The translations under genes were made by a program, and so were the position numbers. A stretch of DNA of 64,000 bases. It comes from Escherichia coli. Lineage in GTDB: Bacteria; Pseudomonadota; Gammaproteobacteria; Enterobacterales; Enterobacteriaceae. Below, piece by piece: positions 17,568 to 34,763 of this stretch. The notes under the pieces were generated by a model. The model worked only from the letters and a program-made list of their open reading frames with translations, was not told where the DNA came from and ran no database searches. The DNA lies in the NCBI RefSeq assembly GCF_030384885.1, contig NZ_CP128613.1. The stretch is one strand, 5' to 3'. The first letter of the stretch is position 1. The number at the start of each line of letters is the position of its first letter.

Positions 17568-18700
17568 GACTGAAGATTCTCCGCAAGCCAGGTAGCCAGT
17601 TCGCCCGGTGTCATGGCAGCTATTTGTGCGCCGACATTTACCAGCGCCTGGGCTGTATCGCGGTCGTAGCAAGGTGTTGCGGTGCTATCGAGCGCTGCCA
17701 GTCCCAGCACTTTGATGCCGCTCTGGACACACTTTTTCACCTGATGCGTCAGCAAAGATGATGAACCCCCTTCATAAAAATCGCTCACGAGTATGATGAC
17801 GCTTTTCGCTGGTTGTTCAATAAGTTGCCGACCATATTCCACGGCACTGGCGATATTGGTCCCGCCGCCCAATTGTACTTTCATTAATAACTCTACCGGA
17901 TCGGCAACGTCGGCAGTGAGATCGACGACGTTAGTGTCAAAAGCGACCAGATGGGTACGAATGCCGGGTAACTGCCATAAACAGGCCGCCATCACCGCTG
18001 AGTGGATCACCGAGTCAACCATCGATCCGCTTTGATCAACCAGTAACACCAGCTGCCATTGTTCGCTATGGCGCTTAATGCGACTGTTAAAGCGGGGGGA
18101 TTCGATATACAACTTGCCGTGTTGCGGGTGCCAGTGTTGCAGGTTGGCGCGCAGAGTACTTTTGAAATCGAAATTACGCGCCAGTGGAATAAATGAGCGG
18201 CGACGGCGATCGCGGACACCAGAAAAAGCCTGACGAACTTCCTTTGCCAGTCGCGCCATAATTTCTTCAACAACCTGGCGCACTATCCGGCGGGCGGCAG
18301 CCAGCACTTCGGGATTCATCAGATGTTTGGTGTGCAAAACGGCGCGTAACAGGCTTTCAGAGGGCTGCATACGTTCCAGCACGTCGAGATTTGTCACTAC
18401 ATCTTCAATGCCATAGCGCAGTACAGCATCGCTTTCCAGCCGCTCAATCACCTGTTGCGGAAACAGCGTGTGAATACTGTTGATCCAATCAGGGGTGGTG
18501 AGATTTGAGCCACCTAATCCACCGGAGCGTTCACCACGCTGGAGCCGTTCAGGATCGCGCCCGTACAGCCACTCCAGCGCGTGGTCCATCCGCCGGGCGT
18601 TGTCATCCAGCCCACAAAGCGTCGTTTCTGCCGCTTCGCCAAGAATTAATCGCCAGCGTTGTAGCTCACGAGTGGTCAGAAGATCGTTCAGTTCAGACAT
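17564..18700 (-). CDS. yehP: von Willebrand factor A domain protein YehP
   Basis: 378 aa beginning MSELNDLLTTRELQRW; MIDAS motif LVLLVDQSGSM; start overlaps yehM stop. Confidence 0.9.
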   Translation of the reverse strand: MSELNDLLTTRELQRWRLILGEAAETTLCGLDDNARRMDHALEWLYGRDPERLQRGERSGGLGGSNLTTPDWINSIHTLFPQQVIERLESDAVLRYGIEDVVTNLDVLERMQPSESLLRAVLHTKHLMNPEVLAAARRIVRQVVEEIMARLAKEVRQAFSGVRDRRRRSFIPLARNFDFKSTLRANLQHWHPQHGKLYIESPRFNSRIKRHSEQWQLVLLVDQSGSMVDSVIHSAVMAACLWQLPGIRTHLVAFDTNVVDLTADVADPVELLMKVQLGGGTNIASAVEYGRQLIEQPAKSVIILVSDFYEGGSSSLLTHQVKKCVQSGIKVLGLAALDSTATPCYDRDTAQALVNVGAQIAAMTPGELATWLAENLQS

Positions 18701-20972: not shown

Positions 20973-20982
20973 GCATCTTTCC

Positions 20983-22071
20983 TCACGGCAGGCGGTGGCG
21001 AGCTTGATAATAAGCCTGCCAGTGAGCTTCTTTATGTGTAGCGACACGCTGTTCGAAGTAACGGCGCAGACGTGCGCGATCTTCTTCGTTATCTTTGACG
21101 ATGGTTCCGGCAATACAGTCTACCAGGTCGGCAGGCTCCCCAGCGCGATTCGCTAAAAACCAGGCGCGGAAACCCACGGCGTGTGCTACGTTAACGGCTT
21201 CAGCGGTGGACATAATCGCTGTAAGGGTATCCATTGAGGTTTTCTTTTCGCCGTTGGCACGCAGATCGCGGAAGGTGCGGACCAGTAACTCCAGTACCGC
21301 GTCAGGCACTTTATGCGGAATACCGCTATGGGCCAGCAAACGTGCCGAAGCGCTGGCGACAAGCTCCAGCTCCTGGGCGAAATCCATAATCGGAAAGACA
21401 GTTTCAAAATCGAAGCGACGCTTGAGTGCGGCACTCATTTCATTGACGCCGCGATCGCGGGTATTGGCAGTAGCAATAATATTAAAGCCTTCCCGCGCAT
21501 AGAGCTGACTGGCTTCACCAGTGAGTTCCGGCACCGTCATAACCCTGTCAGAAAGCATACCTAACAGACAGTCTTGTACTTCCAGTGGTGTACGCGTTAT
21601 CTCTTCAAAACGGACAATTTTGCCGTCGCGCATTCCCTGGTAGAGCGGGGCAGGGACCAGCGCTTCCGTTGACGGACCATGGTTGATAAGCAGGGCGTAG
21701 TTCCAGCCGTACTTGATTTGATCTTCGGTGGTAGATGCGCCGCCCTGGATGGTTAACCCGGCATCGCCGCTAATAGCGGTTGCCAGTAATTCAGACAGGA
21801 GCGATTTTGCGGTGCCAGGTTCCCCCACCAACATCAAACCGCGCCCGGTAGCGAGAGTGACTAACATGCGTTCGACAGCGGAGGGGCTAATCACGACTTT
21901 ACGGCTAATATTTTGTGCTTCGTCGCCAAGGATAAAAACACGGGCCGCAGGCAAACTTAACTGCCAACCGGGCGGGCAAGGTGCGTGATCATTTTGTTTT
22001 AATTTTGCCAGTTCATCGGCGTATAACACAGCGGCAGGCGGACGCTGCAGATGATTATTCTGCGGTGACAT
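20983..22071 (-). CDS. yehL: MoxR-type AAA+ ATPase YehL
   Basis: 362 aa beginning MSPQNNHLQRPPAAV; Walker A GEPGTAKS; CbbQ/NorQ-like. Confidence 0.9.
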   Translation of the reverse strand: MSPQNNHLQRPPAAVLYADELAKLKQNDHAPCPPGWQLSLPAARVFILGDEAQNISRKVVISPSAVERMLVTLATGRGLMLVGEPGTAKSLLSELLATAISGDAGLTIQGGASTTEDQIKYGWNYALLINHGPSTEALVPAPLYQGMRDGKIVRFEEITRTPLEVQDCLLGMLSDRVMTVPELTGEASQLYAREGFNIIATANTRDRGVNEMSAALKRRFDFETVFPIMDFAQELELVASASARLLAHSGIPHKVPDAVLELLVRTFRDLRANGEKKTSMDTLTAIMSTAEAVNVAHAVGFRAWFLANRAGEPADLVDCIAGTIVKDNEEDRARLRRYFEQRVATHKEAHWQAYYQARHRLP

Positions 22072-22265: not shown

Positions 22266-22271
22266 GAACGA

Positions 22272-22503: not shown

Positions 22504-22593
22504 ATGGACACGCTGACACAAAAGTTAACCGTGCTCATTGCCGTACTGGAGTTATTAGTGGCTCTGTTACGGCTGATTGATTTGTTGAAGTAA
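22504..22593 (+). CDS. zorO: Type I toxin, ZorO-like 29-aa hydrophobic peptide
   Basis: ATG at 22504 preceded by SD AAGGAG; translates to MDTLTQKLTVLIAVLELLVALLRLIDLLK; ~174-nt 5'UTR; recognised from memory as ZorO/ZorP family (which paralog is uncertain). Confidence 0.75.
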   Translation: MDTLTQKLTVLIAVLELLVALLRLIDLLK

Positions 22594-22616
22594 CGGGCAA
22601 ATTGAAACGCATCTAA

Positions 22617-22641
22617 GGGGGAAAATACCGCTTCCCCCTTT
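22617..22641 (+). terminator. Hairpin terminator downstream of the toxin ORF
   Basis: gggggaa-aataccgc-ttccccc stem-loop followed by a U-rich tract. Confidence 0.5.
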
Positions 22642-22759
22642 AATAAAATGATTATTGCTTCCATTAATTCACCCGATAACTTTTTTCTTATTTATTAATT
22701 CATCGATTTTATAATTAACGTACATTTGACCGGGATGTGAGTATTTATGGTGGCTATTG

Positions 22760-22972
22760 GCGAAAAATATCTGGAAACCAGATCGCGGAAAATAAAAAAA
22801 CCTGCTGGTGAGGCAGGTTCTTTTATTTACTACTTTGACGATAACTTGCTGATTGTGCAACATTTCGTACCAACGAGTAAATTATAACCATATCCACACT
22901 CCATTGCAATTCAGTGAGTGAGATTTATAATCCTGCCCCTTGGGAGGTTGTGCCGGATCGGACCAATTTGAA
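22760..22972. repeat. Copy 2 of the repeat; truncated toxin-antitoxin unit with no toxin ORF
   Basis: Homology to copy 1 ends about 15 nt before the yehK stop codon; terminator and both promoters conserved. Confidence 0.85.
22793..22876 (-). ncRNA. Second Orz-like sRNA gene (OrzP-like), apparently orphan
   Basis: Minus-strand -10 (rc of attata 22882-22887) and -35 ttgcaa 22904-22909; terminator at 22793-22825; 5' pairing region diverged (gtgcaacatttcgtaccaac). Confidence 0.5.
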
Positions 22973-22986
22973 TTATTTAGAGTATA

Positions 22987-23304
22987 TTATTCTATTTCTT
23001 GGTTGAATATGTTCTGTAGTTCACGATTAAAAATGGCTATTACCGTTTCTGGTGATTCACCTCGTAATTTTCGCTCATCAATAAATTCATCTCTTATATA
23101 AATCAACGCATCATTTATTAGCGGGTCGGCATCTTCTCCATCACGTTGATGAAATGTTGGACGTAGCCGGAATCGTTCCTGTCGATAGACGGAACCTGTA
23201 AATAATTCAGAGCATTTATGGATCTCAAGTCTGAAGGAAAACGGATCTTCAGGTACAGGGACTTCATAATCATAAGTAGCGACCAGCTCTTTTTGCACGA
23301 TCAT
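22987..23304 (-). CDS. yehK: Uncharacterised protein YehK (105 aa)
   Basis: 105-aa ORF 60 nt downstream of yehI on the same strand. Confidence 0.8.
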   Translation of the reverse strand: MIVQKELVATYDYEVPVPEDPFSFRLEIHKCSELFTGSVYRQERFRLRPTFHQRDGEDADPLINDALIYIRDEFIDERKLRGESPETVIAIFNRELQNIFNQEIE

Positions 23305-23364
23305 CGCTTTTCCCGGTGGTAAGTCGTGTTGATAACGGGCAGTCGCATCACTGCCCGCTGTGTT

Positions 23365-26300
23365 TTAATGGAAAATGACGTCAGGTGCGCTTAACGCTTC
23401 ACTCAAATCAAACGTATCGAGTTCGGCAAAAGTGACAGATTTATTGTCACGGTACACTCGAAGAGAACGGAAGCTCATTAGCGCTTTGCTATCAGCACTG
23501 TAGTGGTTAAAACCGGGTGAAAACTTAAGGACCAGCCGATACTCGCCCAGGTCATAGACACATGCGTCCTCAAAACCTGACTCCCAGCCTTTGTATCGCA
23601 TTCCCATAAGTTGCCCAACGGTTGCGGATTTACCTTCCCAGCGAGTCAGGCTGTTACTGGCTGACTCGTCAGGTGTGAGCAGCACTGTGCGCCGCATCAA
23701 CTGGCGAAAAGGCGGCATAATTTCGTAATCGGCAAAAACCTGTGCAAATTCACTGCGCATTTCTGCTGTCATTTCTAACGGGTGGGCAATGCCAATCAGA
23801 GCATCCGCAGGCAGGTCAATTGGCTCATCTTGTGCGTTGCAGAACTCCCTCTCAGCGGCCACACGAAAGGCGTTAAGTAAACGACGCGGTTCATTTGCCG
23901 GATAAACCGCCCATATTAATCGCTGAGTAACCAGGCGAGTAAAGGGATGATTAACAAACAGAGAATGAAAATCTGCCAGCGACCAGCGTCGAGTGGTGCG
24001 TAGGGCAGTTTCAAGACGCGGGAGCAGGTTTTTGCTCACCTGAGTGGCATCTTTTTTTAGCCCTTTTAGTCGGGCCAGTGCCTCGGGTGCTTTCAGCTGA
24101 TCGTCATCGGCGCGCAACCGGGGAACACTTTTCTGGCGAACGTTTTGCTGATCAAAGATAACCGGGTTGAGGTTTTCATCGAAGCGAACGGTAAACTGCC
24201 GGGGTCCAAAATCAAATATCAACGCCTGCGGATCATCCAGGCCCAGTGTTGGGACTAATCTGTCCGCTAACTCTTCCTGGCTTAGTCCACGATTTTCTGC
24301 GACCACCTGAAGAAATTCCGCCGCGTTATCACGTAAGGGACGGGATTTCGCCCGTTGCGATATATGATGCAGCTGTATCAGCGCCATATCATTATTCATC
24401 AGGGTAAGTATATTCAGACCACTGACAGCACGGGCAGATTTGCCCTCTTGAGGCCAGGCAAGGATCTGTGTCGTCAGATCCCGTGCCGTGCTTTCGTCGC
24501 CAAAGAGACTTAACGCCAGAAATGCCCAGTTGTCTTTTGCGGGAGCACCAGCTTGTTGCCACGCGGTGAAAAGATCCCAGGCAAAAGCGGCCAGCGTTTG
24601 TGGCTGGCAGAACGTTTTCAGTTGTTCCAGCCCGCAATAAAAACGTCCGCCCTGGGTAAAGCGCAGCATTTCGCCAATAATTTCCAGAGCGTCATCAGTA
24701 ACAGGTTGATTATTCGTGATAAGTCTCGGTCTGGACCACATTGTCGGATGCCAGAAATCAGGAGCTTTTGGAATGCGTGTTGGGTAAATCTCTATTGGAC
24801 TCTGTTTAAGTAATTGATCCAGGGCAGGCCATACATCTGTACGCTGCCAGCGGTTTGCCACGGTTTGCAGTAATTCGCCATGCCCTTGTTCATACAGTAA
24901 ACGCAGAGCGCTGAGTGCCGCTTCGCTGTTATCGCCAGACCTGGCAAAGATTAATGGGATCAGCGCCGTAGCCGTATGCTCCGGCCATTGTAAAATCCAC
25001 TGGCGAGCCAGATTACGCTGGCCCGCAAAACGATGCCAGACGCGGGCAACGGGCAGCGCCAGTTCTGTTGCGCCAAAATGAATCAGCAGCGGAAATATCT
25101 CTTTGGGATGTCGGGCAAAGGCGGTGATTAATCCGGGCAAAGCATCGGTACCCAGGACACTTAACAGATATTCTACCCCGGTGTAATGAAAATCAGCCGC
25201 AACAATTTGTTGCCAGCACGATACCGCCATTTCGCGCGGCATCTGCGCGATAAGGTACAGATTCCACACTCCCCAACGCTTTTCATCAGTGTAATTAAAT
25301 TTGCGTTGGAAAGTTCGCCACCCCTCCATCAACGCAACGCTATCTTGTGCCAGTAATGCGCTGGCGGCCTCTTCCCGGTAGTGTTTATTTTCAGTCTGTT
25401 TTGCCTGATAATTGAGCAATCTTCCTAATGAAGTATGTGTCTCTAGTTGATCGGTATCCAGAGCATCCAACTGTCCTGTGAGAATAAACTCATTAAACTT
25501 CCACCTGTGATCTTCAAAACCTAATTCCCGCAAGAAGGTATCTGCCCCTCTGCTTACGAGACGTTCGTCAAAAGACATGGCGCTAAAATGGTCAATTGCA
25601 GTTTGCTGTTCCGGCGTCCAGTGTTTATTCGGCGACCTATACGCTTGCGGTACAAGCGTAAGTTCAGGTAGCGAAAAGTGAGTTATGGAAGTCTTTTTCC
25701 TGCCACGCCATGGTGGTGAAACGAGGATTTCAGGCAGACTGCTGTTATCGGTGCTATCAATAACCGGTTTTGGCGATGCCGATAAATAACTATTCACCAC
25801 TGCCCGGGCTTGAGTACTTAACCACGGGATCACCTCTTCTGCCAGTTGTGGCTGCGATGCCATCAGCGTTTGTAACAGCGTACGCCAGTATTCATCACGT
25901 GCTTTTTGCTGTGCAGGCAGCTTTTTGTCTTCGATGATAGGATAACCAGGGCGCGTAGGGGGGGCTTTTAACGCCAGTAGTTCTGCCAGTGCGGCGAGCG
26001 TCGCATGGGGAAAGTTTTTACTGTATTTAGCCACACGCTGCAGGCTGGGTTTGTTTTTATCGGCAACTAACAGCAAGATGCGAATAATTTGCGGATGGTT
26101 AATTTGTACCAGCAGGCTACCGCAATCTTCTTTATGGGCATACATTGCCAGGTGTGGAATGGCTGCCAGTCCTTGTTCGCGCAAAAGGGCAGCGCAGGCC
26201 GCGTAGCCGAAGTGGTTTTCATGCGACATGTAGCTGGCTTCCCGATCGCTAAATATATCCTGGCTCCAGTAGCGTTCGAGTTTTTTCACCGCTCTGGGGT

Positions 26301-27015
26301 CATTAGCAACAACTTTTAACCACTCCTTAGAATGAAAATGAGTCCGCGGGCATTCAAGGCCTACCAACTCATTGGCGATTTCTGGTTTCTCCGGGAGGAT
26401 GAGTGCAATAAAAGGACGGCGAACTTTGGGTATTCCTGGCAGTGCGGCAATGAGTTTGTCGGCGCAACGCTGCCAGCAGCTTTCCTCTGCCAGAGAGAGA
26501 TGCTTACGCAGTCGGAGATCGAATTCGTTATAGGTTTCTGAGCGATAACCATAACCATCGTCCTCGTTCTGATACTGCAATGTTACTACCAGAGGATCAC
26601 TCTCATAACACCGTACAATAAACTGGCGTGCAATCACCACTTCAGTCGCATATTCCAGTCCCTCTTGTTGGACGATTTCGTCGAGCAACTGTTGGCTATC
26701 ATTTTGCGCGATACAGGCTAGCGCCGCCATTGTCCGGGCCGGAATTGAGGGTTTGTGCTCGCCGATCAAGTTGATGGCTTGCGTAATGGCCGACTGCCAC
26801 TCCAGTGAAAAATTTTCATAACGCCAGACGATGTTTTTTTTCTTCTCAGCAATGTGTAGCAATTTATCACCCAGTGTCTGGATGAGGCTTTCAGTGATAA
26901 CAGGCACCGGTTCGCCCGGCCAATTGCGATGGCTGAGTGGTGTTTTGCCTTTTTTATATTTCAGTTCCAGTTGGGCGTTATCCGCCAGCCACGGTAATTC
27001 CTTGTCCATGCTCAT
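23365..27015 (-). CDS. yehI: Large DUF4132-family protein YehI (MolR paralog lacking the WGR domain)
   Basis: 1216-aa ORF; C-terminal two-thirds alignable with both MolR-like genes (GAPAKDNWAF...FGPRQFTV...YEIMPPFRQL); begins at the position homologous to just after their WGR domain. Confidence 0.88.
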   Translation of the reverse strand: MSMDKELPWLADNAQLELKYKKGKTPLSHRNWPGEPVPVITESLIQTLGDKLLHIAEKKKNIVWRYENFSLEWQSAITQAINLIGEHKPSIPARTMAALACIAQNDSQQLLDEIVQQEGLEYATEVVIARQFIVRCYESDPLVVTLQYQNEDDGYGYRSETYNEFDLRLRKHLSLAEESCWQRCADKLIAALPGIPKVRRPFIALILPEKPEIANELVGLECPRTHFHSKEWLKVVANDPRAVKKLERYWSQDIFSDREASYMSHENHFGYAACAALLREQGLAAIPHLAMYAHKEDCGSLLVQINHPQIIRILLLVADKNKPSLQRVAKYSKNFPHATLAALAELLALKAPPTRPGYPIIEDKKLPAQQKARDEYWRTLLQTLMASQPQLAEEVIPWLSTQARAVVNSYLSASPKPVIDSTDNSSLPEILVSPPWRGRKKTSITHFSLPELTLVPQAYRSPNKHWTPEQQTAIDHFSAMSFDERLVSRGADTFLRELGFEDHRWKFNEFILTGQLDALDTDQLETHTSLGRLLNYQAKQTENKHYREEAASALLAQDSVALMEGWRTFQRKFNYTDEKRWGVWNLYLIAQMPREMAVSCWQQIVAADFHYTGVEYLLSVLGTDALPGLITAFARHPKEIFPLLIHFGATELALPVARVWHRFAGQRNLARQWILQWPEHTATALIPLIFARSGDNSEAALSALRLLYEQGHGELLQTVANRWQRTDVWPALDQLLKQSPIEIYPTRIPKAPDFWHPTMWSRPRLITNNQPVTDDALEIIGEMLRFTQGGRFYCGLEQLKTFCQPQTLAAFAWDLFTAWQQAGAPAKDNWAFLALSLFGDESTARDLTTQILAWPQEGKSARAVSGLNILTLMNNDMALIQLHHISQRAKSRPLRDNAAEFLQVVAENRGLSQEELADRLVPTLGLDDPQALIFDFGPRQFTVRFDENLNPVIFDQQNVRQKSVPRLRADDDQLKAPEALARLKGLKKDATQVSKNLLPRLETALRTTRRWSLADFHSLFVNHPFTRLVTQRLIWAVYPANEPRRLLNAFRVAAEREFCNAQDEPIDLPADALIGIAHPLEMTAEMRSEFAQVFADYEIMPPFRQLMRRTVLLTPDESASNSLTRWEGKSATVGQLMGMRYKGWESGFEDACVYDLGEYRLVLKFSPGFNHYSADSKALMSFRSLRVYRDNKSVTFAELDTFDLSEALSAPDVIFH

Positions 27016-27018
27016 TCC

Positions 27019-30000
27019 TTATTCAAACAGGGCTTCGATGTCGTTAATTAACTCGCTAGCGGTGATGTCATCGAGTGCGGAGAACAGCGCTTCCTGTGTT
27101 GAATTAATCCCCCAGCCATAGCTTTCTGCTTTGCCTTCCCATAGCCACAGCTTGCTTAAGAGTTGCTCGGCACTGAGTTCGGCTGGCGACATACCAACTG
27201 CAAATCCTTCATCGATTTCCATGATTAATGACCAGCGGCCCAGAGGTTTGATCATCCAGCCGATCCAGCCACCGTCCTGCGGTTCACCACGCACCCAGCC
27301 TTTATTCGACAGCCCCATAACCCGACCGCTCGGGCATTTTCTGCCTGCCCAGCGGGTTAGTTCGCTGGTGTTTCGTTCGACTTCAGTCAGGGCATAACTG
27401 TTGCGGTCGAGCTGGCGGAACGGCGGTAACAGCTCGTAGTCGGCAAAAAGCTGACCAAAGGCGGCGGCATCCGTCGGTGATATTTCCAGAACGTGAGGAA
27501 TACCTATAGAGATATCGCCTTCCGGCAGGGTGAAAAGATCATCGTCAGCGGTGCTGTAGCTGTTATCTTCCGCCACACGGAAGCACGCCAGTAACTGGTT
27601 GTCTGCGCTATAAATGCCCCAAATCAGACGGCGGGTTAAGTGGCAGACCAGCGGATTCTCAACCAGAAAGAGCTGAAAGTTTTCTGGCGACCAGCGGCGG
27701 CGCAGGCACATGGCGGATTCCAGCCTTGCCACCTGCTGGGCGGCAACGGTACGCGCATCTTTTTTCAGCAGTTTGTAGCGGTTAACTGCATCGTTCGCTT
27801 GGGTTTCATCATCGCTTTTGTTCGGTTTAGGCAAGTCTTTCAGGCGGCTGCCGGAAGCATCACGCACAAACGGTTTTAAGGTTTCATCAAAGCTGACGGT
27901 GAACTGCCGTGGCCCGAAATCCAGCAGCAGCGAACCGTTATCATCCAGACCGAGATCGGGCGCTAAGCGATCTTCAAGTTCTGCCACTGTGAGTTCGCGG
28001 CTTTCGGCAATGTCGGCAATTTTTTCTTTTGCCCGCTCCTGTAATGCTTTGAATTTCAGTTTCTGGGCGATGCCGTTAAGCTGCATCAGGGCGATATCAC
28101 TACCGATAGCAGCGAGAATATCCAGCCCGACGGTGGCGCGTTTATGCTGGGATTCACCAGGCCAGGCGCGGATTAATGGCGTCAGTTTGCGGGCGGTGTC
28201 ATCGTTGCCAAGAACACCTAATGCAGTGAACGCCCAGCTCTCTTTCGACGGCGCGCCAGCGGTCTCCCAGGCGGTAAACAGATCCCAGGCAAACTCAGCC
28301 AGTGAGTCGGCAGTACAGGCGTCTTTCACCTGTAATAACCCCGCATACAGCGTATCTTCCTGAGGGAAGCGGAGCATTTCACCGAGGTGGAAGAGGGCGC
28401 TATCTGGCAGTGATTGGGCGTTTGCTTTTAATACCGGGCGTGTCCAGAGCGATGGCTGATAAAAGGCCGGAAGTGTCGGGATTTTAGTCGGGTGATTATC
28501 TAAGGGATCGAGCGCAAGTAGAGCGTTCACCGCATCGGTTACTTCCGGCTGGTTATAACGCTGGGCGATTTCTTGCAGTAATGACGGATAACCACTTTCA
28601 ATCAACATACGTAAGGCGGCGCGGGCGTTATCCTGGGCTTCACCAGCTTTGCCGAGTGCCGCAGGCAACAGGCCGATAATGGCATGTTCCGGATATTTCA
28701 GCAGCCAGGTGCGGGCGTCTTGTCGTAGAGTTTTGAGTTTGTTAAAGGCGCGGGCGACGGCAGGAGCCAGCTCACTCGCTGCGAAGTAATTCGTTATGGG
28801 CAAGGCTTCCTGTGGATAGCGTGCAAGTGAGTTTACTAACCCAGGTAATCCTTTGAGTCCAAAATGTAACATGGCGTATTCGGTATCGGTATGCGGAGAT
28901 ACAGTAAGGGCATTCCATGCTCTTATTGCTTTCTCCAGCGGCAATGTTGTCAAAATCCCCAAATGCCAATAATGCCCGGTAGGTGAATGAAACACCTTAA
29001 ATTCACTTATTAAGGTTGAATAATCTTCATTTAGCCATGCCTCAACTACCGCTTCGGGAGCTTTAATATATGTACCAGCGATCCGTCGTTGAAAACCCAT
29101 CCTTGCCAACAGATTGGCAGTACTTTCTTCATGACTAACCGTGATGTGTTTTGAATACCAGATATATTTCGCCAAAAGTTGATTACTGATTTCTTCTGTC
29201 AGATAACTGATTGGCTCAATGCCTAATGGTGCTAAATCAAGCACCGGAATCGACGATTTTTTCTTTTTCGAAAGCCATGGTGGGGAGACTACTATGGCCG
29301 GCAGTAGATCGGTGCTGGCATGGTTTGAGGGCTGTGTCAGTTGTTGCTGGCATGATTTCAGCACTGCAGCTGCGGGTGTCGAAAGCCAGGGAATGACCTG
29401 TTCTGCCAGTGCTGGTTGCGAGATAAGCATCGTCATTAGCATAATGCGCCAACTATTCTCTTCTTTTTGCACTAGAAGTTCCGCCAGTGCTGCCAGTGCT
29501 GCGTGTGGGAACGCAGCGCAGGCTTTCGTCATTCGATCGTGACAGCGTTTAGTATGCCCGGCTACACGTATAAGCAGTGTTAATGCGAACGGATGATTGA
29601 TATGACGCAACACATCGGCGCAGTAGTCACTTGCGGCATAGGGAGCAAATCGGGGCAGGGCTGCAACACCTTGCTCCTGTAATACGGTGGCTGACCATAT
29701 CGCACCACAATAGTAATCATCAAAAATGGCATATGGCTCGTGATATTTTTCTAATGAGGCAAGAATGTGCTCATCAGTCGCCACTATTTTTAGCCACTCA
29801 AGCGAGGGTAATTTTTTTTTCCCCAGTAGACGCTGGGCAATTTCATGTGCAATTTCTGGTTTTTCGGGTAATAACAAAGCAATTAATGGTTGCCGCCATT
29901 CTGGAATATGTGGAATTGCGGCAATGAGTTTTTGTGCACATTTTTGCCAGAGAGACTCTTCCGCCAGTGATAAATGTTTCCGTAGGCGTAATTCAAAACT

Positions 30001-30813
30001 GGAATATTGCTGCAAGTTATCAGGTGCAATGCCAGACGGCAGAATAATAATGATATTATTCGCATAATTCCATTCAATATCAATCTGTTGAAGGTGTATT
30101 ATTACATCAGTAGCATATTCCAGACCGCCTTCCTGAATGATCTGATCCATAACATCCTCACGCACTTTATATCTTGTGCATTTCATTTCAAGTGCCGTGA
30201 GTACAGCCATTACTGGTGATGGTAACTGTGTTGTTTTCAGGCAGTCGATCTGACTGATCGCCTGGGCGACGGTGTTTTGCCATACTAAAGAACAGGCGCT
30301 GAAGTCAAATGTGGCTGTTTTATTATCCCGTTGCGACACGCTACAGGCTAAGCGACGTAACTGGGTCAAGTTGTCTGCTTGCTGAACAGGAACTCCGGGA
30401 AAGCGGCGATGGCTTAACGTGGTGTGTACAACTTCGGGCGGAAAAACGACAGCAATATCTTTCGCCAGCCACGGTAAAACATCATCTGTATTTTTGTCAG
30501 CCACACGGGCTTCTGCTACGCAAAAGGGTTGTTCCTGAATAATGGTGGATAAGGCCGCTACCTTGAGAGAATCCGTTACCGTTTGGGAAGGTTGCAAAGA
30601 ATTATCCTTCGCTTGCTCCACATACCCCTTCTTCATCTTCTCCGCAATCAGCCTCAGTTCCGCTTTTTCCGCCGCCGCAGCATCAGCAAAGCTTTTTACC
30701 TGGCTTTGCCCGTTGGTACCAACTTTGCCCCAACTAATATGCAGCTCGTTTCCCTGTTGCTCCACTGCCCAGAATTTATGTGATTTTTCGTCCTGATAAA
30801 TATAGGTTTTCAT
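27019..30813 (-). CDS. molR: MolR-like protein, WGR domain plus DUF4132 (1264 aa), copy A
   Basis: N-terminus MKTYIYQDEKSHKFWAVEQQGNELHISWGKVGTNGQ is a WGR domain; C-terminal DUF4132-like region; 3-nt gap to yehI start; which copy corresponds to K-12 molR is uncertain. Confidence 0.85.
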   Translation of the reverse strand: MKTYIYQDEKSHKFWAVEQQGNELHISWGKVGTNGQSQVKSFADAAAAEKAELRLIAEKMKKGYVEQAKDNSLQPSQTVTDSLKVAALSTIIQEQPFCVAEARVADKNTDDVLPWLAKDIAVVFPPEVVHTTLSHRRFPGVPVQQADNLTQLRRLACSVSQRDNKTATFDFSACSLVWQNTVAQAISQIDCLKTTQLPSPVMAVLTALEMKCTRYKVREDVMDQIIQEGGLEYATDVIIHLQQIDIEWNYANNIIIILPSGIAPDNLQQYSSFELRLRKHLSLAEESLWQKCAQKLIAAIPHIPEWRQPLIALLLPEKPEIAHEIAQRLLGKKKLPSLEWLKIVATDEHILASLEKYHEPYAIFDDYYCGAIWSATVLQEQGVAALPRFAPYAASDYCADVLRHINHPFALTLLIRVAGHTKRCHDRMTKACAAFPHAALAALAELLVQKEENSWRIMLMTMLISQPALAEQVIPWLSTPAAAVLKSCQQQLTQPSNHASTDLLPAIVVSPPWLSKKKKSSIPVLDLAPLGIEPISYLTEEISNQLLAKYIWYSKHITVSHEESTANLLARMGFQRRIAGTYIKAPEAVVEAWLNEDYSTLISEFKVFHSPTGHYWHLGILTTLPLEKAIRAWNALTVSPHTDTEYAMLHFGLKGLPGLVNSLARYPQEALPITNYFAASELAPAVARAFNKLKTLRQDARTWLLKYPEHAIIGLLPAALGKAGEAQDNARAALRMLIESGYPSLLQEIAQRYNQPEVTDAVNALLALDPLDNHPTKIPTLPAFYQPSLWTRPVLKANAQSLPDSALFHLGEMLRFPQEDTLYAGLLQVKDACTADSLAEFAWDLFTAWETAGAPSKESWAFTALGVLGNDDTARKLTPLIRAWPGESQHKRATVGLDILAAIGSDIALMQLNGIAQKLKFKALQERAKEKIADIAESRELTVAELEDRLAPDLGLDDNGSLLLDFGPRQFTVSFDETLKPFVRDASGSRLKDLPKPNKSDDETQANDAVNRYKLLKKDARTVAAQQVARLESAMCLRRRWSPENFQLFLVENPLVCHLTRRLIWGIYSADNQLLACFRVAEDNSYSTADDDLFTLPEGDISIGIPHVLEISPTDAAAFGQLFADYELLPPFRQLDRNSYALTEVERNTSELTRWAGRKCPSGRVMGLSNKGWVRGEPQDGGWIGWMIKPLGRWSLIMEIDEGFAVGMSPAELSAEQLLSKLWLWEGKAESYGWGINSTQEALFSALDDITASELINDIEALFE

Positions 30814-30825
30814 TGCAAAGTCCTT

Positions 30826-33800
30826 TTAATCAAAAAGTGATTCAACATCGTTAATCAACTCGCTGGCGGTGATGTCGTCGAGCATGGAAAAAGTAAGTAA
30901 AGGTTGTTTACCGTAGCGATCATCTGGCGAGGTGATTTTTACGCTTTCAACAGGTAACAGGTCGCCATAACCTGTTTCACCATAAATTAATGAAAAATGT
31001 TCTGTTTCAAGTTCGAGATCGCCATAAGGGGTAGATTTGCGCATCGCATAGACGCTGCCGCTTTCTTCCAGACGTTGCCAGCCTCGGCGCTCTAGCCCGA
31101 CAATACGTCCGGCCTGACAGAGCTGTCCTTGCCAGCGTGTCAGGTCGTGGGTATTCCGTTCATTATCAGCAAGACGATAACTACCACGATCGAGCTGTTG
31201 GAAGGGGGGAAGCAGTTCGTAATCAGCGTAAATTTGCCTGAATGCAGCGGCAGATTCAGGGGGGATTTCCAGCACATGCGGTATACCGATGTTTCCTGCT
31301 GGCAGCGTGAATAACTCATCCTGCGCATCGCTGTAAGTGCTGTCTTCTGCGACCCGGAAGCAGGCAATCAGCGTGTTTTCTTCAGTATATACTCCCCATA
31401 ACAGCCGTCGGGTTAAGTGACGTACCAGCGGATGCTCCACCAGAAACAGGCGGAACTGTTCTGCCGTCCAGCGTCTGCGCTGGCACATAGCCTGCTCCAG
31501 ACGATCAATCTGCTGACTGGCAATGGCGCGCACATCTTTCTTCAATTGTTTGAAGAGGTTAACGGCGTCAGTTGCCAGTGTTTTATCATCGCTCTGATTT
31601 GGTTTGGGTAAATCTTTCAGGACTTTGCCGTTTGCATCGCGCACTACAGGTTTTAAGGTTTCGTCAAAACCAACGGTGAATTGACGTGGGCCGAAATTAA
31701 GTATCAGCGAGCCGTTGATATCAAGCCCTAAATCTGGAGCCAGGCGGTCTTCCAGTTCGGCCATAGTCAGCCCACGGTTTTCAGCAACTATGTTGATTTT
31801 CTCGCGGGCATGTTCCTGTAATACAACGAATTTAATCTTTTTCGCAATGCCATTAAGCAGCATTAGCGCAACATCGCTGCCAATATCAGCTAATACATCC
31901 AACCCGGACACCGCCCGTTTATGCTGTGATTCCCCAGGCCAGGCACTGATAAGCGGGGTTAATTTACGCGCGGTGTCGTCATTGCCTAAAATCCCCAGCG
32001 AAGTAAATGCCCAGTTTTCTTTTGCGGGTGCGCCAGCTTCTGTCCAGGCGGTATACAGATCCCAGCCAAAGTCAGCCAGTGATTCGCGAGTGAAGGTTTC
32101 TTTGATGATCTCCAGCCCAGCGTAGGCGGTAATGTCGCGAGGAAAGCTCAGCATAGTGCCCAGGTGGCGCATAGCGTCATCTGGTAGAGGCAGGTTGTTA
32201 CTTTTAAGCCGTGGTCTGCGCCATAAGGTGAACTGATAAAAGCCGGGCAGTGGGGCGATTTTTGCGGGATATTCTTCCAGAGGATCGCTATCAAATAATG
32301 TTGCCAGCGCAGCTAAAACATCAGGTTGATTATATCCTTGCGCGATTTTCTCAATCGTTTCTCGCTGGTTTAATTTCACTAGCAGGCGGAGCGCCTGGCG
32401 GGCATATTCCCGATTTTGGCACGGTTTGCCCAGTGCCAAAGGCAGTAGCCCGGCGGCGGCATGGCGCGGGTTATTTGCCAGCCAATTAACGGCATCCTTG
32501 TAAGCCATTTTTTTCTGTAACCGCTGCGCCATTGGTAAGGCTAGTTCACTGGCCCCAATAAAGAGGGTGAATATCCACAGTCGTTGATGATCTCGTTGCA
32601 AGCAGGTCATAAACGCAGGAATGGCCGTACTACCAAAAACTGCCAGAATCTCTTTCTCACCTGAATATCGCTCCTCAATGATTATTTGGTTGAGAAATGA
32701 AATCGCCTGTTGTCCCGGTAAGTAACAAAGCGCAGATAAATTCCAGCTTTTGTTGGCATTGTTGTGATATTTCGCAAACTCAGCTTTTAGTGCTGGAAAA
32801 TCAAAGCGCAACAAGGCATCAACAGCGCTTTGCGGTATGTATTTTTTTTCATGTAAGTCATCTTCGCAATGCAGCCATTCATTAAAACCTAATTGCCAAA
32901 GGATTTGTTGTTCTGGTGTAAAAGGAATGAAAGATGTCTCCCAGCTTTCTTTTTCAATTAGTGGTAGGTCGGTAAATAAGGTTTGCTGTGATGCCTGATA
33001 TTTCGCGATTTCACTGAATCTGGATATGTCAGTGTGACTGATTAACTCTGTAATTCCTGGTGTGATATCCGTGACGGCAGGAATGGGAAGCACAGGTAAA
33101 TCAAATACGGGTATTACATTTTTCTTCTTATTTATTATCCACGGTGGAGCGACAAATAGCTGCGGCAACATATCCGCAGTGGCATACTCACATTCTTTAG
33201 CTACTGACTGAGGACGACATTCAGATAAGATGCCTGCCGCTTTAGCATTAACCCAGGGAATGACGTCAGTGACTAACTCTGGCGTGACGGTAATCAGTTT
33301 GACAAGCGCGTTGCGCCACTGTGCATCTTCATGTATTGCCAGCAAAGTAGCATAAGCGGCAATAGCCGCAGCGGGATGTTTTTGGCAGGCTTTGCTTAAG
33401 TATTCCAGGTGCTTTTTCTTGCCATTTACACCGAGGATCAGAATTTGAATCGCATCCGGGTGATTCGTTTTCCATAGCCATTTGACAAGATCTTCAGTCT
33501 CGCTGATGCGCTCGAAGAGATAAGTGGGATTGTCAGAATGCTCTTCCACAAACTCAGTAAGTATCCGGCTTACACCGCGCCCCCCATTATTTGCCAGCAA
33601 CATTGCCAGATAAGCGCGAAAATCACGATACAACGGTGGGAAGTCGTATTTTTCTGCTGTAGTCAGAGCTATATCATCGGTTACTACCAGTCTTAACCAG
33701 GTTATCGCCGGAACGTTTTGGTCTGCATAATGTAGCGCCATAGCATTGGCAATATCCGGGCGTTCAGGGAGCAGTAACGCGGCAAAAGGTTGCCGTGCTG

Positions 33801-34623
33801 GGGATAGCGTCGGAATAGCAGTAAGCACTTTATCCACACAGCGTTGCCACTCATCTTCTGAAGCGAGTGAAAGATGATGACATAGACGTTGATGCCAACT
33901 CGGTAGCGATTCTGCTTCGTGATTAGGTGGAATGATGGTGGTTACTGCGCCTTTTACTGGTTTATATTTGAGTTGAAGAGCGAGAAGGGCGATTTCAACG
34001 GCACTTTCCAGACCACAGCGAATGACTAAGTCATCGACCAGTTCATCTTGAGAGTAAGAGTTCCAAAAGCCCCAGAGCAATGCTGCATCAGATTGCGCAC
34101 TCCCTGTCGGTTGATTACCCTGAACTCGCATTTGTAACTCAGCAAAAGCCTGCTGCCAGTTTTCTGGATAAGAGCGGTAATTATTGTCGGGGTCATATGC
34201 CCTGGTGTTATTCGCGATGCGCTTCCATATTTGACCATCTTTGTGCAGATAATTGATATCTCTGGGGCGAGAGCGATGTGGAAAAGCAAATCGGTTAATA
34301 TCGTCGGTTAGCGGAATGACTGCATCATCAGCCAGCCATGGGCGTTTGTTTTTACTCTCGGGTGAAGTTTCAACGTCAGGAGTGACTTTGGTGACGGGGG
34401 GGATATGCACGTTTGCCGAAGCGTCTTCCACATAGCCTTTTTTCGTTTTCTCAGCGATAAGCTTCAGTTCCGCTTTTTCCGCCGCCGCAGCATCCGCAAA
34501 GCTTTTTATCTGGCTTTGCCCTTGGGTGCCAACTTTTCCCCAACTGATATGCAACTCGTTACCTTGCTGCCCCACCGCCCAGAATTTATGCGATTTTTCG
34601 TCCTGGTAGATATAACTCTTCAT
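30826..34623 (-). CDS. MolR-like protein, WGR domain plus DUF4132 (1265 aa), copy B
   Basis: N-terminus MKSYIYQDEKSHKFWAVGQQGNELHISWGKVGTQGQ; diverged central region; conserved C-terminus; 12-nt gap to copy A. Confidence 0.85.
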   Translation of the reverse strand: MKSYIYQDEKSHKFWAVGQQGNELHISWGKVGTQGQSQIKSFADAAAAEKAELKLIAEKTKKGYVEDASANVHIPPVTKVTPDVETSPESKNKRPWLADDAVIPLTDDINRFAFPHRSRPRDINYLHKDGQIWKRIANNTRAYDPDNNYRSYPENWQQAFAELQMRVQGNQPTGSAQSDAALLWGFWNSYSQDELVDDLVIRCGLESAVEIALLALQLKYKPVKGAVTTIIPPNHEAESLPSWHQRLCHHLSLASEDEWQRCVDKVLTAIPTLSPARQPFAALLLPERPDIANAMALHYADQNVPAITWLRLVVTDDIALTTAEKYDFPPLYRDFRAYLAMLLANNGGRGVSRILTEFVEEHSDNPTYLFERISETEDLVKWLWKTNHPDAIQILILGVNGKKKHLEYLSKACQKHPAAAIAAYATLLAIHEDAQWRNALVKLITVTPELVTDVIPWVNAKAAGILSECRPQSVAKECEYATADMLPQLFVAPPWIINKKKNVIPVFDLPVLPIPAVTDITPGITELISHTDISRFSEIAKYQASQQTLFTDLPLIEKESWETSFIPFTPEQQILWQLGFNEWLHCEDDLHEKKYIPQSAVDALLRFDFPALKAEFAKYHNNANKSWNLSALCYLPGQQAISFLNQIIIEERYSGEKEILAVFGSTAIPAFMTCLQRDHQRLWIFTLFIGASELALPMAQRLQKKMAYKDAVNWLANNPRHAAAGLLPLALGKPCQNREYARQALRLLVKLNQRETIEKIAQGYNQPDVLAALATLFDSDPLEEYPAKIAPLPGFYQFTLWRRPRLKSNNLPLPDDAMRHLGTMLSFPRDITAYAGLEIIKETFTRESLADFGWDLYTAWTEAGAPAKENWAFTSLGILGNDDTARKLTPLISAWPGESQHKRAVSGLDVLADIGSDVALMLLNGIAKKIKFVVLQEHAREKINIVAENRGLTMAELEDRLAPDLGLDINGSLILNFGPRQFTVGFDETLKPVVRDANGKVLKDLPKPNQSDDKTLATDAVNLFKQLKKDVRAIASQQIDRLEQAMCQRRRWTAEQFRLFLVEHPLVRHLTRRLLWGVYTEENTLIACFRVAEDSTYSDAQDELFTLPAGNIGIPHVLEIPPESAAAFRQIYADYELLPPFQQLDRGSYRLADNERNTHDLTRWQGQLCQAGRIVGLERRGWQRLEESGSVYAMRKSTPYGDLELETEHFSLIYGETGYGDLLPVESVKITSPDDRYGKQPLLTFSMLDDITASELINDVESLFD

Positions 34624-34720
34624 CCGCGTTCCCTGTATTTATATCCAGTTATAAGCGGATGCTAGCAGTTAATGAAAAAAATTAAGAGCGTTGAACAAAC
34701 AAGAAAACAACTTTAGGAAT

Positions 34721-34753
34721 TCATAAAGAAAAGGCGCTGTCGATGCAGCGCCT
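34721..34753 (-). terminator. Intrinsic terminator of metG
   Basis: Minus-strand hairpin ggcgctg-catcga-cagcgcc followed by ttttctttat, 10 nt after the metG stop. Confidence 0.7.
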
Positions 34754-34763
34754 TGAAGGGGGA

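What the first reader, a model, noticed from the sequence alone, without database searches (positions are those of the whole stretch)
23365..34623. Three tandem DUF4132 paralogs, two with an N-terminal WGR domain and one (YehI) starting exactly after it
The two MolR-like genes open with a near-identical WGR domain (MK(T/S)YIYQDEKSHKFWAV...ISWGKVGT), a domain known from PARP-type nucleic-acid-binding proteins. YehI aligns with both from the segment immediately after WGR (LPWLADNAQLEL vs LPWLAKDIAVVF / RPWLADDAVIPL) through the conserved C-terminus (FGPRQFTV..., YE(L/I)(L/M)PPFRQL). Central regions are strongly diverged. This points to a duplicated and diversifying sensor-like family with modular loss or gain of WGR.
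Basis: seen in the sequence. Interest (0 to 1): 0.65.

Follow-up and report, generated by a model that had tools for sequence, protein, structure and literature searches.

The report
Tandem MolR/YehI paralogs of E. coli
Three neighbouring E. coli genes (two molR-like genes and yehI) are old copies of one large, already catalogued protein of unknown function; they belong to a widely conserved gene cluster with an ATP-driven MoxR/VWA machine, and each carries a middle segment that differs sharply between strains.

Summary
Window 23365-34623 (minus strand) holds three full-length paralogs (32-44% identity, BLASTP E=0). Two carry an N-terminal WGR domain and YehI lacks it; all three have DUF4132. 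This is the annotated metG-molR-yehI-yehK-yehLMPQ locus of E. coli, and RefSeq already uses the name 'WGR and DUF4132 domain-containing protein', so the finding itself is not new.

What the tools add:
- The duplication is old. Synonymous sites are saturated, and Klebsiella has the same trio.
- The family is large (5,877 cluster representatives). In 54 of 74 loci from other species it lies beside, and co-directional with, YehL (MoxR AAA+); 49 of these also carry YehM (DUF5682), YehP (VWA) and YehQ (SWIM).
- The predicted structure runs WGR, disordered linker, HEAT-like solenoid, then a DUF4132 alpha/beta module with no enzyme-like fold match.
- Each paralog has a central cassette that varies within the species (24-60% identity between strains, flanks above 90%).
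- Copy number varies, and pseudogenes are common (K-12, O157).
- K-12 molR is a chimera left by a 3.8-kb deletion between the two WGR-coding repeats.

My best reading is that these proteins are exchangeable recognition subunits of the YehLMPQ motor, possibly acting in a biological conflict. That function is inferred, not shown.

The parts
30826..34623 (-). Paralog A: WGR + solenoid + DUF4132 protein, 1265 aa. It is the metG-proximal molR-like gene and is absent from K-12.
   Evidence: ORF. Pfam WGR at residues 8-69 and DUF4132 at 999-1182. RefSeq WP_106907450.1. An A-type gene is present at >=80% coverage in 1629 of 5426 complete E. coli genomes.
34417..34623 (-). WGR-coding 5' end of A (residues 1-69). 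It forms a direct repeat with the 5' end of B.
   Evidence: Pfam. Nucleotide identity between A and B is 76-100% per 25-nt window across about 175 nt. This repeat was the substrate of the deletion that produced the K-12-type chimeric molR.
32374..33126 (-). Central variable cassette of A (about residues 500-750).
   Evidence: 98% identical to strains AHB30 and FDAARGOS_1370, but 68-70% to CREC-U1, O157 and E. whittamii, and 42% to Klebsiella.
27019..30813 (-). Paralog B: ortholog of K-12 molR/yehH, WGR + solenoid + DUF4132, 1264 aa, intact in this strain.
   Evidence: 93.6% nucleotide identity over the full length to K-12. Pfam. AlphaFold2 model of residues 1-1200 with pLDDT 88.3. Its start lies 12 nt after the stop of A.
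30607..30813 (-). WGR-coding 5' end of B (residues 1-69).
28714..29316 (-). Central variable cassette of B (about residues 500-700). In the model it is an irregular insert within the solenoid.
   Evidence: 94-98% identical to K-12, FDAARGOS_1370 and 7_12_15B, but 51-54% to CREC-U1, AHB30 and ST80, and 47-49% to Klebsiella. It is the least conserved stretch family-wide, with a conservation index of 0.14 at residues 551-600.
27022..27996 (-). C-terminal DUF4132 alpha/beta module of B (residues 940-1264), ending in a conserved helix with near-invariant S1253 and E1254.
23365..27015 (-). Paralog C = yehI, WGR-less (1216 aa from the first ATG, 1214 aa from the RefSeq start at 27009).
   Evidence: ORF and annotation. 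84% identical to K-12 YehI overall. Pfam finds DUF4132 only. Present in 5212 of 5426 genomes. Its start lies 3-9 nt after the stop of B.
25108..25694 (-). Central variable cassette of yehI (about residues 437-640). This strain carries a rare allele.
   Evidence: No blastn match to K-12 here, while the flanks are 92-93% identical. Protein identity falls to 24-54% in this segment against 82-100% in almost all of the flanks. Only 48 of 5426 genomes share this cassette. It is 37-42% identical to every other Escherichia YehI and to Klebsiella YehI, whereas residues 700-900 are 95-97% identical to other E. coli.
34624..34763 (-). metG-A intergenic region, holding the metG terminator (34754-34731) and the presumed promoter of the operon.
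   Evidence: Terminator-like hairpin with 9 pairs and a T-run. The region aligns with the K-12 metG-molR intergenic region, at 66-100% identity per 50-nt window, lowest next to the gene start. In K-12 that promoter is activated by BglJ-RcsB (PMC3950696).
22987..23304 (-). yehK, 105 aa, no recognisable domain. It was found only in Escherichia loci.
   Evidence: Annotation. No Pfam, NCBIfam or PADLOC hit. Present in 2 of 74 related loci, both Escherichia.
20983..22071 (-). yehL, a MoxR-family AAA+ ATPase (YehL subfamily).
   Evidence: Pfam AAA_5, E=2.6e-34. Walker A GEPGTAKS is intact. Its closest solved relatives are the AAA modules of Midasin, E=7e-10. Subfamily naming is from PMC3893208.
18693..20972 (-). 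yehM, a DUF5682 protein.
   Evidence: Pfam DUF5682, E=1.1e-97. No PDB relative.
17564..18700 (-). yehP, a VWA protein with an intact MIDAS motif.
   Evidence: Pfam VWA_CoxE, E=2.2e-71. The sequence contains DQSGS...GGGT...SDF.
15576..17567 (-). yehQ, a SWIM zinc-finger family protein.
   Evidence: RefSeq product name. The Pfam SWIM hit is weak, E=3.6e-3. Homologs occupy the same position in 51 of 74 loci.

Best explanation
The three genes are ancient tandem paralogs of one widespread protein family. The architecture is an optional N-terminal WGR domain and a disordered linker, then a HEAT-like alpha-solenoid of about 850 residues interrupted by a hypervariable insert, then a conserved DUF4132 alpha/beta module that ends in a helix with a near-invariant Ser-Glu pair.

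Shown by the tools:
- The three proteins are full-length homologs.
- Their domain content and predicted fold are as described above.
- Family members lie in a conserved, co-directional cluster with YehL (MoxR AAA+), YehM (DUF5682), YehP (VWA with an intact MIDAS motif) and YehQ (SWIM).
- Copy number of the DUF4132 gene varies from 1 to 6 between species, while YehLMPQ stays single.
- Within E. coli each paralog exists as mosaic alleles that differ in a central cassette.

Inferred:
- The DUF4132 proteins are exchangeable recognition (adaptor or sensor) subunits. They dock through the conserved C-terminal module on the YehL-YehP motor. The terminal Ser-Glu helix may be the ligand of the YehP MIDAS site, as acidic residues are for other MoxR/Midasin-VWA pairs.
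- The variable solenoid insert sets which partner is recognised.
- WGR adds recognition of nucleic acid (ends) in A and B, and YehI is a WGR-less variant of the same adaptor.

Most speculative step: the partners recognised are foreign or invading molecules, which would make this a conflict or surveillance system. This would explain the cassette polymorphism, the copy-number changes and the frequent gene decay.
For: Homology and domains:
- Full-length alignments and Pfam hits.
- Full-length model pLDDT 88.3. The WGR fold matches 2ra8 and the PARP1/PARP3 WGR domains. The body matches HEAT/ARM solenoids such as SF3B1, CAND1 and karyopherins.

Selection on the paralogs:
- dN/dS is 0.07 in WGR and 0.08 in residues 851-1150, with dS at or above 1. 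The paralogs are old and constrained.

Cluster conservation:
- Of 74 loci from other species, 54 have YehL adjacent and 49 have all of YehLMPQ, co-directional.
- The taxa include Klebsiella, Erwinia, Serratia, Variovorax, Massilia, Burkholderia, Lysobacter, Trichlorobacter and Mycolicibacterium.
- Precomputed Pfam context shows the same cluster in Cystobacter, Hydrogenophaga, Burkholderia and two further contigs.

The window's own downstream genes:
- AAA_5 2.6e-34, DUF5682 1.1e-97 and VWA_CoxE 2.2e-71.
- Walker A and the MIDAS motif are intact.

Variable front end, constant back end:
- DUF4132 copy number is 1 in 55 loci and 2-6 in 19 loci.

Conservation pattern:
- The C-terminal 450 residues are the most conserved part family-wide (index 0.5-0.73), and the central insert is the least conserved (0.14).
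- S1253 and E1254 are each present in 99% of sequences.

Polymorphism within E. coli:
- Central cassettes are 24-60% identical between strains, with flanks above 90%.
- This strain's YehI cassette is as far from other E. coli (37-42%) as from Klebsiella (41%).
- It is shared by only 48 of 5426 genomes.
- The A-type gene is found in 1629 genomes, the B-type in 4010, and all three genes in 640.
- Pseudogenes or disruptions occur in K-12, O157, ST80, AHB30 and FDAARGOS_1370.

Precedent: MoxR-vWA-centred counter-invader systems with rapidly evolving sensors are described in the literature.
Against: - No toxin or effector domain was recognised in any of the nine proteins.
- None of them hits PADLOC-DB v2.
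- The DUF4132 module has no enzyme-like structural neighbour.
- The family is absent from 50,697 phage records. It is found in only 31 of 72,556 plasmid records, several of them chromosome-sized.
- The characterised MoxR-VWA pairs named in the paper read here act in the maturation of enzyme complexes, not in defence (PMC3893208).
- No physical interaction between DUF4132 proteins and YehLMPQ has been tested here.
- In E. coli the two gene blocks are separated by yehK and an 850-nt toxin-antitoxin insert.
- Cassette divergence is too deep for dN/dS, because dS is saturated. Positive selection is therefore not demonstrated, and relaxed constraint combined with recombination could give a similar picture.
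- The WGR motif is WGK in A and B rather than WGR.
Confidence: 0.45

Rival explanations
1. The cluster is a housekeeping maturation chaperone. YehL-YehP would act like CoxD-CoxE, NorQ-NorD, CbbQ-CbbO or RavA-ViaA, assembling or repairing a metalloenzyme or protein complex, possibly one linked to molybdenum. The DUF4132 solenoids would serve as client-specific scaffolds.
For: YehP matches the CoxE-type VWA family (2.2e-71), and YehL is a MoxR ATPase. The MoxR-VWA pairs described in PMC3893208 are maturation factors. The historical gene name is 'molybdate metabolism regulator'. The family is chromosomal rather than carried on mobile elements.
Against: No client enzyme gene is conserved next to the cluster, and the flanking genes differ in every taxon examined. 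Tandem expansion to 6 copies, cassette alleles within one species and frequent pseudogenes are unusual for a dedicated chaperone. K-12 carries molR as a pseudogene. I could not read the 1990 molR paper.
Confidence: 0.2
2. The cluster is a Midasin-like remodeller of nucleic-acid-protein complexes in normal physiology, for example ribosome or nucleoid transactions. WGR and SWIM would provide nucleic-acid contact, and the solenoids would grip the particle.
For: YehL's closest solved relatives are the AAA modules of Midasin (E=7e-10). WGR and SWIM are both domains associated with nucleic-acid binding. Deleting molR_1 in K-12 is synthetically slow-growing with deletion of lepA, a translation factor (PMC4245954).
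Against: K-12 molR is already a pseudogene, so that genetic interaction may be a polar effect on the adjacent metG. The family has a patchy distribution, variable copy number and frequent decay, which argue against a core housekeeping role. The SWIM match is weak (3.6e-3).
Confidence: 0.12
3. In E. coli the genes are decaying relics with no current function. On this view the variation reflects relaxed constraint and recombination, not selection.
For: Pseudogenes or disruptions appear in 5 of 8 sampled genomes. A resistance transposon sits in this region in a successful ST131 subclade (PMC9334617). No phenotype is known.
Against: In this strain all three ORFs of about 1,200 codons, and yehLMPQ, are intact. 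dN/dS is 0.07-0.08 in WGR and the C-terminal region over saturated dS. YehI is retained at >=80% coverage in 5212 of 5426 genomes. The trio is conserved in Klebsiella. Catalytic motifs are intact in YehL and YehP.
Confidence: 0.12

Closest known systems
E. coli K-12 molR (yehG/yehH, pseudogene) and yehI; Pfam DUF4132 (PF13569) and WGR (PF05406)
   Same: B is the ortholog of molR (93.6% nucleotide identity) and C is yehI (84% amino-acid identity). They have the same Pfam domains, and RefSeq already names such proteins 'WGR and DUF4132 domain-containing protein'.
   Different: This strain has an extra intact paralog A and an intact B, whereas K-12 has one chimeric pseudogene. It also carries a rare yehI central cassette.
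WGR domains of PARP1, PARP2 and PARP3, and of B. fragilis Q64V53 (PDB 2ra8, WGR + LRR)
   Different: There is no PARP catalytic domain and there are no zinc fingers. The C-terminal partner is a solenoid plus DUF4132. The central motif reads WGK. Nucleic-acid binding is untested.
MoxR-VWA chaperone pairs (RavA-ViaA, CoxD-CoxE, NorQ-NorD, CbbQ-CbbO); YehL subfamily of MoxR
   Same: An AAA_5 MoxR ATPase is followed by a VWA protein of the CoxE type with an intact MIDAS motif. YehL is the name-giving member of one of the seven MoxR subfamilies (PMC3893208).
   Different: Three further conserved partners are present (DUF5682, SWIM, DUF4132 with or without WGR), and no client enzyme is conserved nearby.
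vWA-MoxR ternary counter-invader systems (VMAP or iSTAND type; Kaur et al. 2020, as summarised in bioRxiv 10.1101/2023.09.22.558884 and PMC12839542)
   Same: Both have a MoxR + vWA core combined with a rapidly diversifying, repeat-rich third component proposed to act as a sensor. Here the central cassette and the copy number diversify.
   Different: No VMAP-C, iSTAND, peptidase, TIR, cyclase or other effector domain was detected. The bpMoxR match is only 2.4e-3. There are no PADLOC hits. Diversification is by recombination and allelic cassettes, not by a retroelement.
Midasin/Rea1
   Same: Midasin's AAA modules are the closest solved relatives of YehL. From general knowledge, Midasin also carries a MIDAS (VWA-type) domain that binds a conserved acidic residue on its substrates.
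   Different: Midasin is a single giant eukaryotic polypeptide that acts on pre-60S ribosomes. Here the modules are separate bacterial proteins, and the substrate is unknown.
HEAT/ARM solenoid adaptors (karyopherins, CAND1, SF3B1)
   Different: Similarity is only at the level of fold class (TM-scores 0.05-0.19), with no sequence relationship.

Membership tests
WGR domain (PF05406) | Match to the family HMM | tested here: met
   A and B match with E=1.6e-17; YehI does not match. phmmer hit to the 2ra8 WGR domain, E=7e-17.
WGR domain (PF05406) | Fold: small antiparallel sheet packed on a helix, as in PARP WGR domains | tested here: met
WGR domain (PF05406) | Central Trp-Gly-Arg motif | tested here: inconclusive
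   A and B read ISWGKVGT, a conservative change of Arg to Lys. The family consensus here is GRIGT.
WGR domain (PF05406) | Binding of nucleic acid | not testable with these tools
   This needs EMSA or similar assays with the purified domain.
DUF4132 (PF13569) | Match to the family HMM over its full length | tested here: met
   All three proteins match; in A, E=2.8e-51 over model positions 1-179 of 179.
MoxR-VWA systems (YehL subfamily) | MoxR-type AAA+ ATPase and a VWA/MIDAS protein encoded together | tested here: met
   yehL matches AAA_5 at 2.6e-34 and yehP matches VWA_CoxE at 2.2e-71. Walker A and the MIDAS motif are intact. The adjacency is conserved in 53-54 of 74 loci.
vWA-MoxR-VMAP/iSTAND ternary conflict systems | Third component with a VMAP-C or iSTAND module, plus an effector domain (peptidase, cyclase, TIR, EAD) | tested here: not met
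   Pfam on YehK, YehL, YehM, YehP, YehQ and on A, B, C shows none of these.
Known or candidate anti-phage defence systems (PADLOC-DB v2.0.0) | Match of any component to a defence-system model | tested here: not met
   All nine proteins gave 0 families at E<=0.01.
Poly(ADP-ribose) polymerases | PARP catalytic domain C-terminal to WGR | tested here: not met
   Pfam finds only WGR and DUF4132. The body is a solenoid.
Molybdate metabolism regulator (the historical name MolR) | A demonstrated role in molybdate utilisation or regulation, and a DNA-binding regulator architecture | not tested
   The name comes from Lee et al. 1990, cited in PMC4245954. That paper is not held. No regulator-type DNA-binding domain was found by Pfam.

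The most novel reading that the evidence does not exclude
The YehLMPQ core (MoxR AAA+, DUF5682, VWA, SWIM), together with one to six WGR-solenoid-DUF4132 proteins, is a previously undescribed multi-subunit surveillance or counter-invader system. Tandem paralogs and recombining central cassettes would supply a repertoire of recognition specificities. WGR would read nucleic-acid ends. K-12 would have hidden this function because its molR is a deletion-derived pseudogene.
Probability: 0.25. Interest if true: 0.75.

Novelty: already known. Interest (0 to 1): 0.38.

Why it matters
The finding as written restates existing annotation: molR, yehI, and the WGR and DUF4132 families.

The follow-up does make a set of long-standing E. 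coli 'y-genes' more approachable in four ways:
- molR, yehI and yehLMPQ should be studied as one conserved system.
- K-12 is a poor model for it, because its molR is a chimeric pseudogene. Strains such as 2013C-4282 or CREC-U1 carry intact versions.
- The central cassette is a natural candidate for a specificity determinant.
- The terminal Ser-Glu helix and the YehP MIDAS motif are candidate docking contacts.

If the conflict reading holds, this would add a new architecture to the MoxR-VWA-centred immune systems.

Tried and rejected
- **Recent gene conversion as the cause of the near-identical WGR domains.** Rejected as the main cause, because dS in WGR is about 1.1 and dN/dS is 0.07, which points to purifying selection. 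dS is nevertheless lower than elsewhere, and variants are shared between A and B across strains. Occasional exchange in this segment is therefore likely.
- **YehI as an ancient WGR-less clade shared across phyla.** Not supported. In a tree of the C-terminal regions, paralogs group by genome, and YehI orthologs are found only in Escherichia and Klebsiella. WGR loss is recurrent.
- **A known defence system.** There are no PADLOC hits.
- **Phage or plasmid origin.** There are no phage matches and few plasmid matches. The PHROG hits probably come from chromosomal DNA that was included in prophage calls.
- **Solved structures for YehM, YehP, YehQ.** None were found.
- **Literature.** Only four papers mention DUF4132 and none deals with function. 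One search was uninformative because 'SWIM' matched 'swimming'. The 1990 molR paper could not be read.
- **Positive-selection test on the cassettes.** Not feasible, because the allele classes are saturated at synonymous sites.

Full report
**Identity of the locus.** The window is 100% identical to E. coli strain 2013C-4282 (NZ_CP027579.1). The region is the annotated locus apbC / metG / three 'DUF4132 domain-containing protein' genes / yehK / yehL / yehM / yehP / SWIM-protein gene (yehQ) / yehR. This strain is about 94-95% identical to K-12 even in the flanking core genes, so it belongs to a divergent Escherichia lineage.

**Check of the observation.**
- Three minus-strand ORFs fill 23365-34623: A 30826-34623 (1265 aa), B 27019-30813 (1264 aa) and C/YehI 23365-27015 (1216 aa; RefSeq starts at 27009).
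- They are spaced by 12 nt and by 3-9 nt.
- BLASTP aligns them end to end: A-B 44%, B-C 37%, A-C 32%, all with E=0.
- Pfam finds WGR in A and B (1.6e-17) and DUF4132 in all three (2.8e-51).
- YehI begins at the LPWLAD motif, which in A and B follows WGR and the linker.
- Identity along A-B is 92% in residues 1-50, 14-16% in 101-250, 24-26% in 551-650, 64-82% in 851-1150, 22-36% in 1151-1250 and 79% in the last 14 residues.

**Structure.**
- An AlphaFold2 model of B residues 1-1200, built on 61 homologs, has mean pLDDT 88.3 and pTM 0.76.
- Residues 1-66 form four strands and a helix. Residues 70-109 are disordered. Residues 126-950 are an alpha-solenoid with an irregular insert at about 494-640. 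Residues 960-1200 are alpha/beta.
- The body matches HEAT/ARM solenoids only at the level of fold class.
- The tail helix carries S1253 and E1254, each present in 99% of 94 family members.

**Age of the paralogs.**
- Synonymous sites are saturated between all pairs. In WGR, pS is 0.58, dS about 1.1 and dN/dS 0.07. In residues 851-1150, dN/dS is 0.08.
- The near-identity of the two WGR domains is therefore mainly purifying selection. Shared variants between A and B across strains also suggest occasional exchange in that segment.
- Klebsiella oxytoca, K. spallanzanii, E. whittamii and Escherichia sp. E1V33 have the same order: WGR+, WGR+, WGR-less. Identity to B over the C-terminal region falls into three tiers (76-79%, 63-65% and 40%) that follow gene order in the Klebsiella loci, and YehI groups with the third Klebsiella gene in a tree of that region.
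- YehI is a long-branch outlier, 37-42% identical to everything else in the C-terminal 470 residues.

**The family and its genomic context.**
- A search of 1.84 billion cluster representatives gave 5,877 relatives at E<=1e-3 and 2,605 at E<=1e-30.
- Of the best 140, 93 have an N-terminal WGR and 25 are full-length without it.
- Called-gene contexts in Cystobacter, Hydrogenophaga, Burkholderia, a contig labelled Mycobacterium talmoniae and a metagenome contig all show DUF4132 gene(s) next to AAA_5, DUF5682, VWA and, where the contig extends far enough, a protein of about 620-750 aa that in Burkholderia has a faint SWIM hit.
- A scan of one genome per species found at least 572 relatives. In the 74 loci kept, tblastn found YehL in 54, YehM in 53, YehP in 53, YehQ in 51 and all four in 49, always on the same strand as the DUF4132 gene(s).
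- The loci lacking these genes are mostly cut by contig ends or are extra arrays, as in Massilia.
- DUF4132 copy number is 1 in 55 loci and 2-6 in 19.
- The window's own genes match AAA_5 (2.6e-34), DUF5682 (1.1e-97), VWA_CoxE (2.2e-71) and, weakly, SWIM (3.6e-3). YehL keeps Walker A and YehP keeps a DxSxS...T...D MIDAS motif.
- The closest solved relatives of YehL are the AAA modules of Midasin.
- YehL is the type member of one of seven MoxR subfamilies (PMC3893208).

**Variation within E. coli.** Among 5,426 complete genomes:
- An A-type gene is present at >=80% coverage in 1,629, a B-type gene in 4,010 and yehI in 5,212.
- In 640 genomes a single match covers at least 80% of the 15-kb region that spans all three genes.

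The single molR of K-12, 7_12_15B and ST80 has the A-type promoter and first codons (98-100% identical to A of CREC-U1). Beyond the WGR-coding segment it switches to the B-type body. The two-gene form therefore arose by a 3.8-kb deletion between the two WGR-coding repeats.

In eight annotated genomes the states were as follows:
- All genes intact: 2013C-4282 and CREC-U1.
- B intact and A absent: 7_12_15B.
- B a pseudogene: K-12.
- A and B both pseudogenes: O157:H7.
- yehI with an internal stop: ST80.
- B split by about 1.4 kb: AHB30.
- A deletion running from yehI into yehM: FDAARGOS_1370.

**Central cassettes.**
- Comparing orthologs between strains, each paralog has a central segment of low identity, while the flanks are mostly above 90% identical, apart from a variable N-terminal region of B in some strains. 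The segment is at about residues 430-650 in YehI (24-54%), about 500-700 in B (29-62%, in CREC-U1 and ST80) and about 500-750 in A (51-74%, in CREC-U1).
- The yehI cassette of this strain has no blastn match in K-12 and is shared by 48 of 5,426 genomes.
- It is 37-42% identical to YehI of every other Escherichia examined and 39-41% to Klebsiella. The adjacent residues 700-900 are 95-97% identical to other E. coli and 69% to Klebsiella.
- B has at least two or three classes that are as far from each other as from Klebsiella.
- The same segment is the least conserved across the whole family.
- This pattern indicates replacement or long-term retention of allelic cassettes by recombination. Whether selection drives it could not be tested, because synonymous sites are saturated.

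**Function.**
- Nothing in the searchable literature addresses the function of DUF4132. Only four papers mention it, and the one with the most mentions concerns a resistance transposon inserted in this region in ST131.
- The K-12 molR promoter is activated by BglJ-RcsB.
- A molR_1 deletion is synthetically slow-growing with a lepA deletion. Since K-12 molR is a pseudogene next to metG, this result is hard to interpret.
- None of the nine proteins matches PADLOC.
- The family is absent from phage records and rare on plasmids.
- MoxR-vWA-centred counter-invader systems with fast-evolving sensor components are described. Their defining third components and effectors are not present here.

**Reading.**
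- The conserved C-terminal module, the constant YehLMPQ core, the variable copy number and the variable central insert fit best with DUF4132 proteins acting as exchangeable recognition subunits of a MoxR-VWA motor. WGR would be an optional nucleic-acid-reading head.
- A role in biological conflict is plausible but unproven.
- A maturation-chaperone role, a Midasin-like housekeeping role, and plain decay in E. coli are the rivals.

**Verdict.** The feature itself is already catalogued. The new value lies in the system-level context, the cassette polymorphism, the origin of the K-12 pseudogene, and concrete experiments.

Noticed in passing
window 22172-22930 (yehK-yehL intergenic region): A zor-orz type I toxin-antitoxin locus interrupts the cluster. 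Rfam OrzO-P matches twice (22183-22258 and 22794-22867, minus strand; 98.9 and 90.6 bits), each with a promoter-like site. A 29-aa hydrophobic ORF (MDTLTQKLTVLIAVLELLVALLRLIDLLK) lies at 22504-22593 on the plus strand. Only one ZorO-like ORF was seen for the two sRNA copies. The locus was described at this site in O157:H7 (PMC2887945) and is absent from K-12.
   Followed up: partly
L002 10998-11195 (K-12 derivative), compared with window 34427-34623 and 30607-30813: K-12 molR is a chimera. Its promoter and first codons are A-type and its body is B-type. This implies a 3.8-kb deletion by recombination between the two WGR-coding repeats.
   Followed up: yes
whole window; measured on 19000-22363 and 34427-40000: The strain is only about 94-95% identical to K-12 in core genes (metG, apbC, yehL, yehM). 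In the 15-kb search only 57 of 5,643 matching records reach 95% identity. It therefore comes from a divergent Escherichia lineage filed as E. coli.
   Followed up: partly
L011 3624-7316 (E. coli FDAARGOS_1370): A deletion joins a 5' part of yehI to a 3' part of yehM and removes yehK and yehL, while both WGR paralogs stay intact.
   Followed up: no
L014 5415-9176 (E. coli AHB30): Paralog B is split by about 1.4 kb of unannotated DNA, possibly an insertion sequence. PMC9334617 reports the resistance transposon TnMB1860 in the same metG/DUF4132/yeh region in ST131.
   Followed up: no
window 22987-34623 (proteins A, B, YehI, YehK): PHROG families phrog_20839, 28101, 36602 and 36295 match these chromosomal proteins almost perfectly, yet none of 50,697 phage records encodes a relative. 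These PHROGs probably come from host DNA that was swept into prophage calls.
   Followed up: partly
L033, L054, L060, L061, L067, L079, L089, L090 (Massilia species): Massilia genomes carry tandem arrays of up to six DUF4132 genes and several separate loci per genome. Some of these have no YehLMPQ within 10 kb.
   Followed up: partly
L006 12575-12700 (Hydrogenophaga, second paralog): This paralog is listed as DUF4132-only, but its N-terminus (MRRFEAQERTKTYFWEIW...GRVGKGGQ) looks like a degenerate WGR domain. Some 'WGR-less' members may therefore be eroded rather than truncated.
   Followed up: no
L004, L005, L085 (contigs labelled Mycobacterium talmoniae): These contigs carry the same WGR+, WGR+, WGR-less trio followed by the MoxR cluster, with 53-56% identity to the E. 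coli protein. Whether they are truly mycobacterial or come from a contaminant was not checked.
   Followed up: no
window 22000-37000 (query): The 15-kb query gave 223 matching places on E. coli plasmids, whereas the three genes alone gave only 1-4. Which part of the region recurs on plasmids was not determined.
   Followed up: no
window 30607-30813 and 34417-34623 (WGR domains of A and B): NCBIfam NF047464 (Leptospira LIC_11051 'fibronectin-binding protein') matches only the WGR domain (residues 1-78, E about 1e-16), far below its cut-off. That family evidently starts with a WGR domain too.
   Followed up: no
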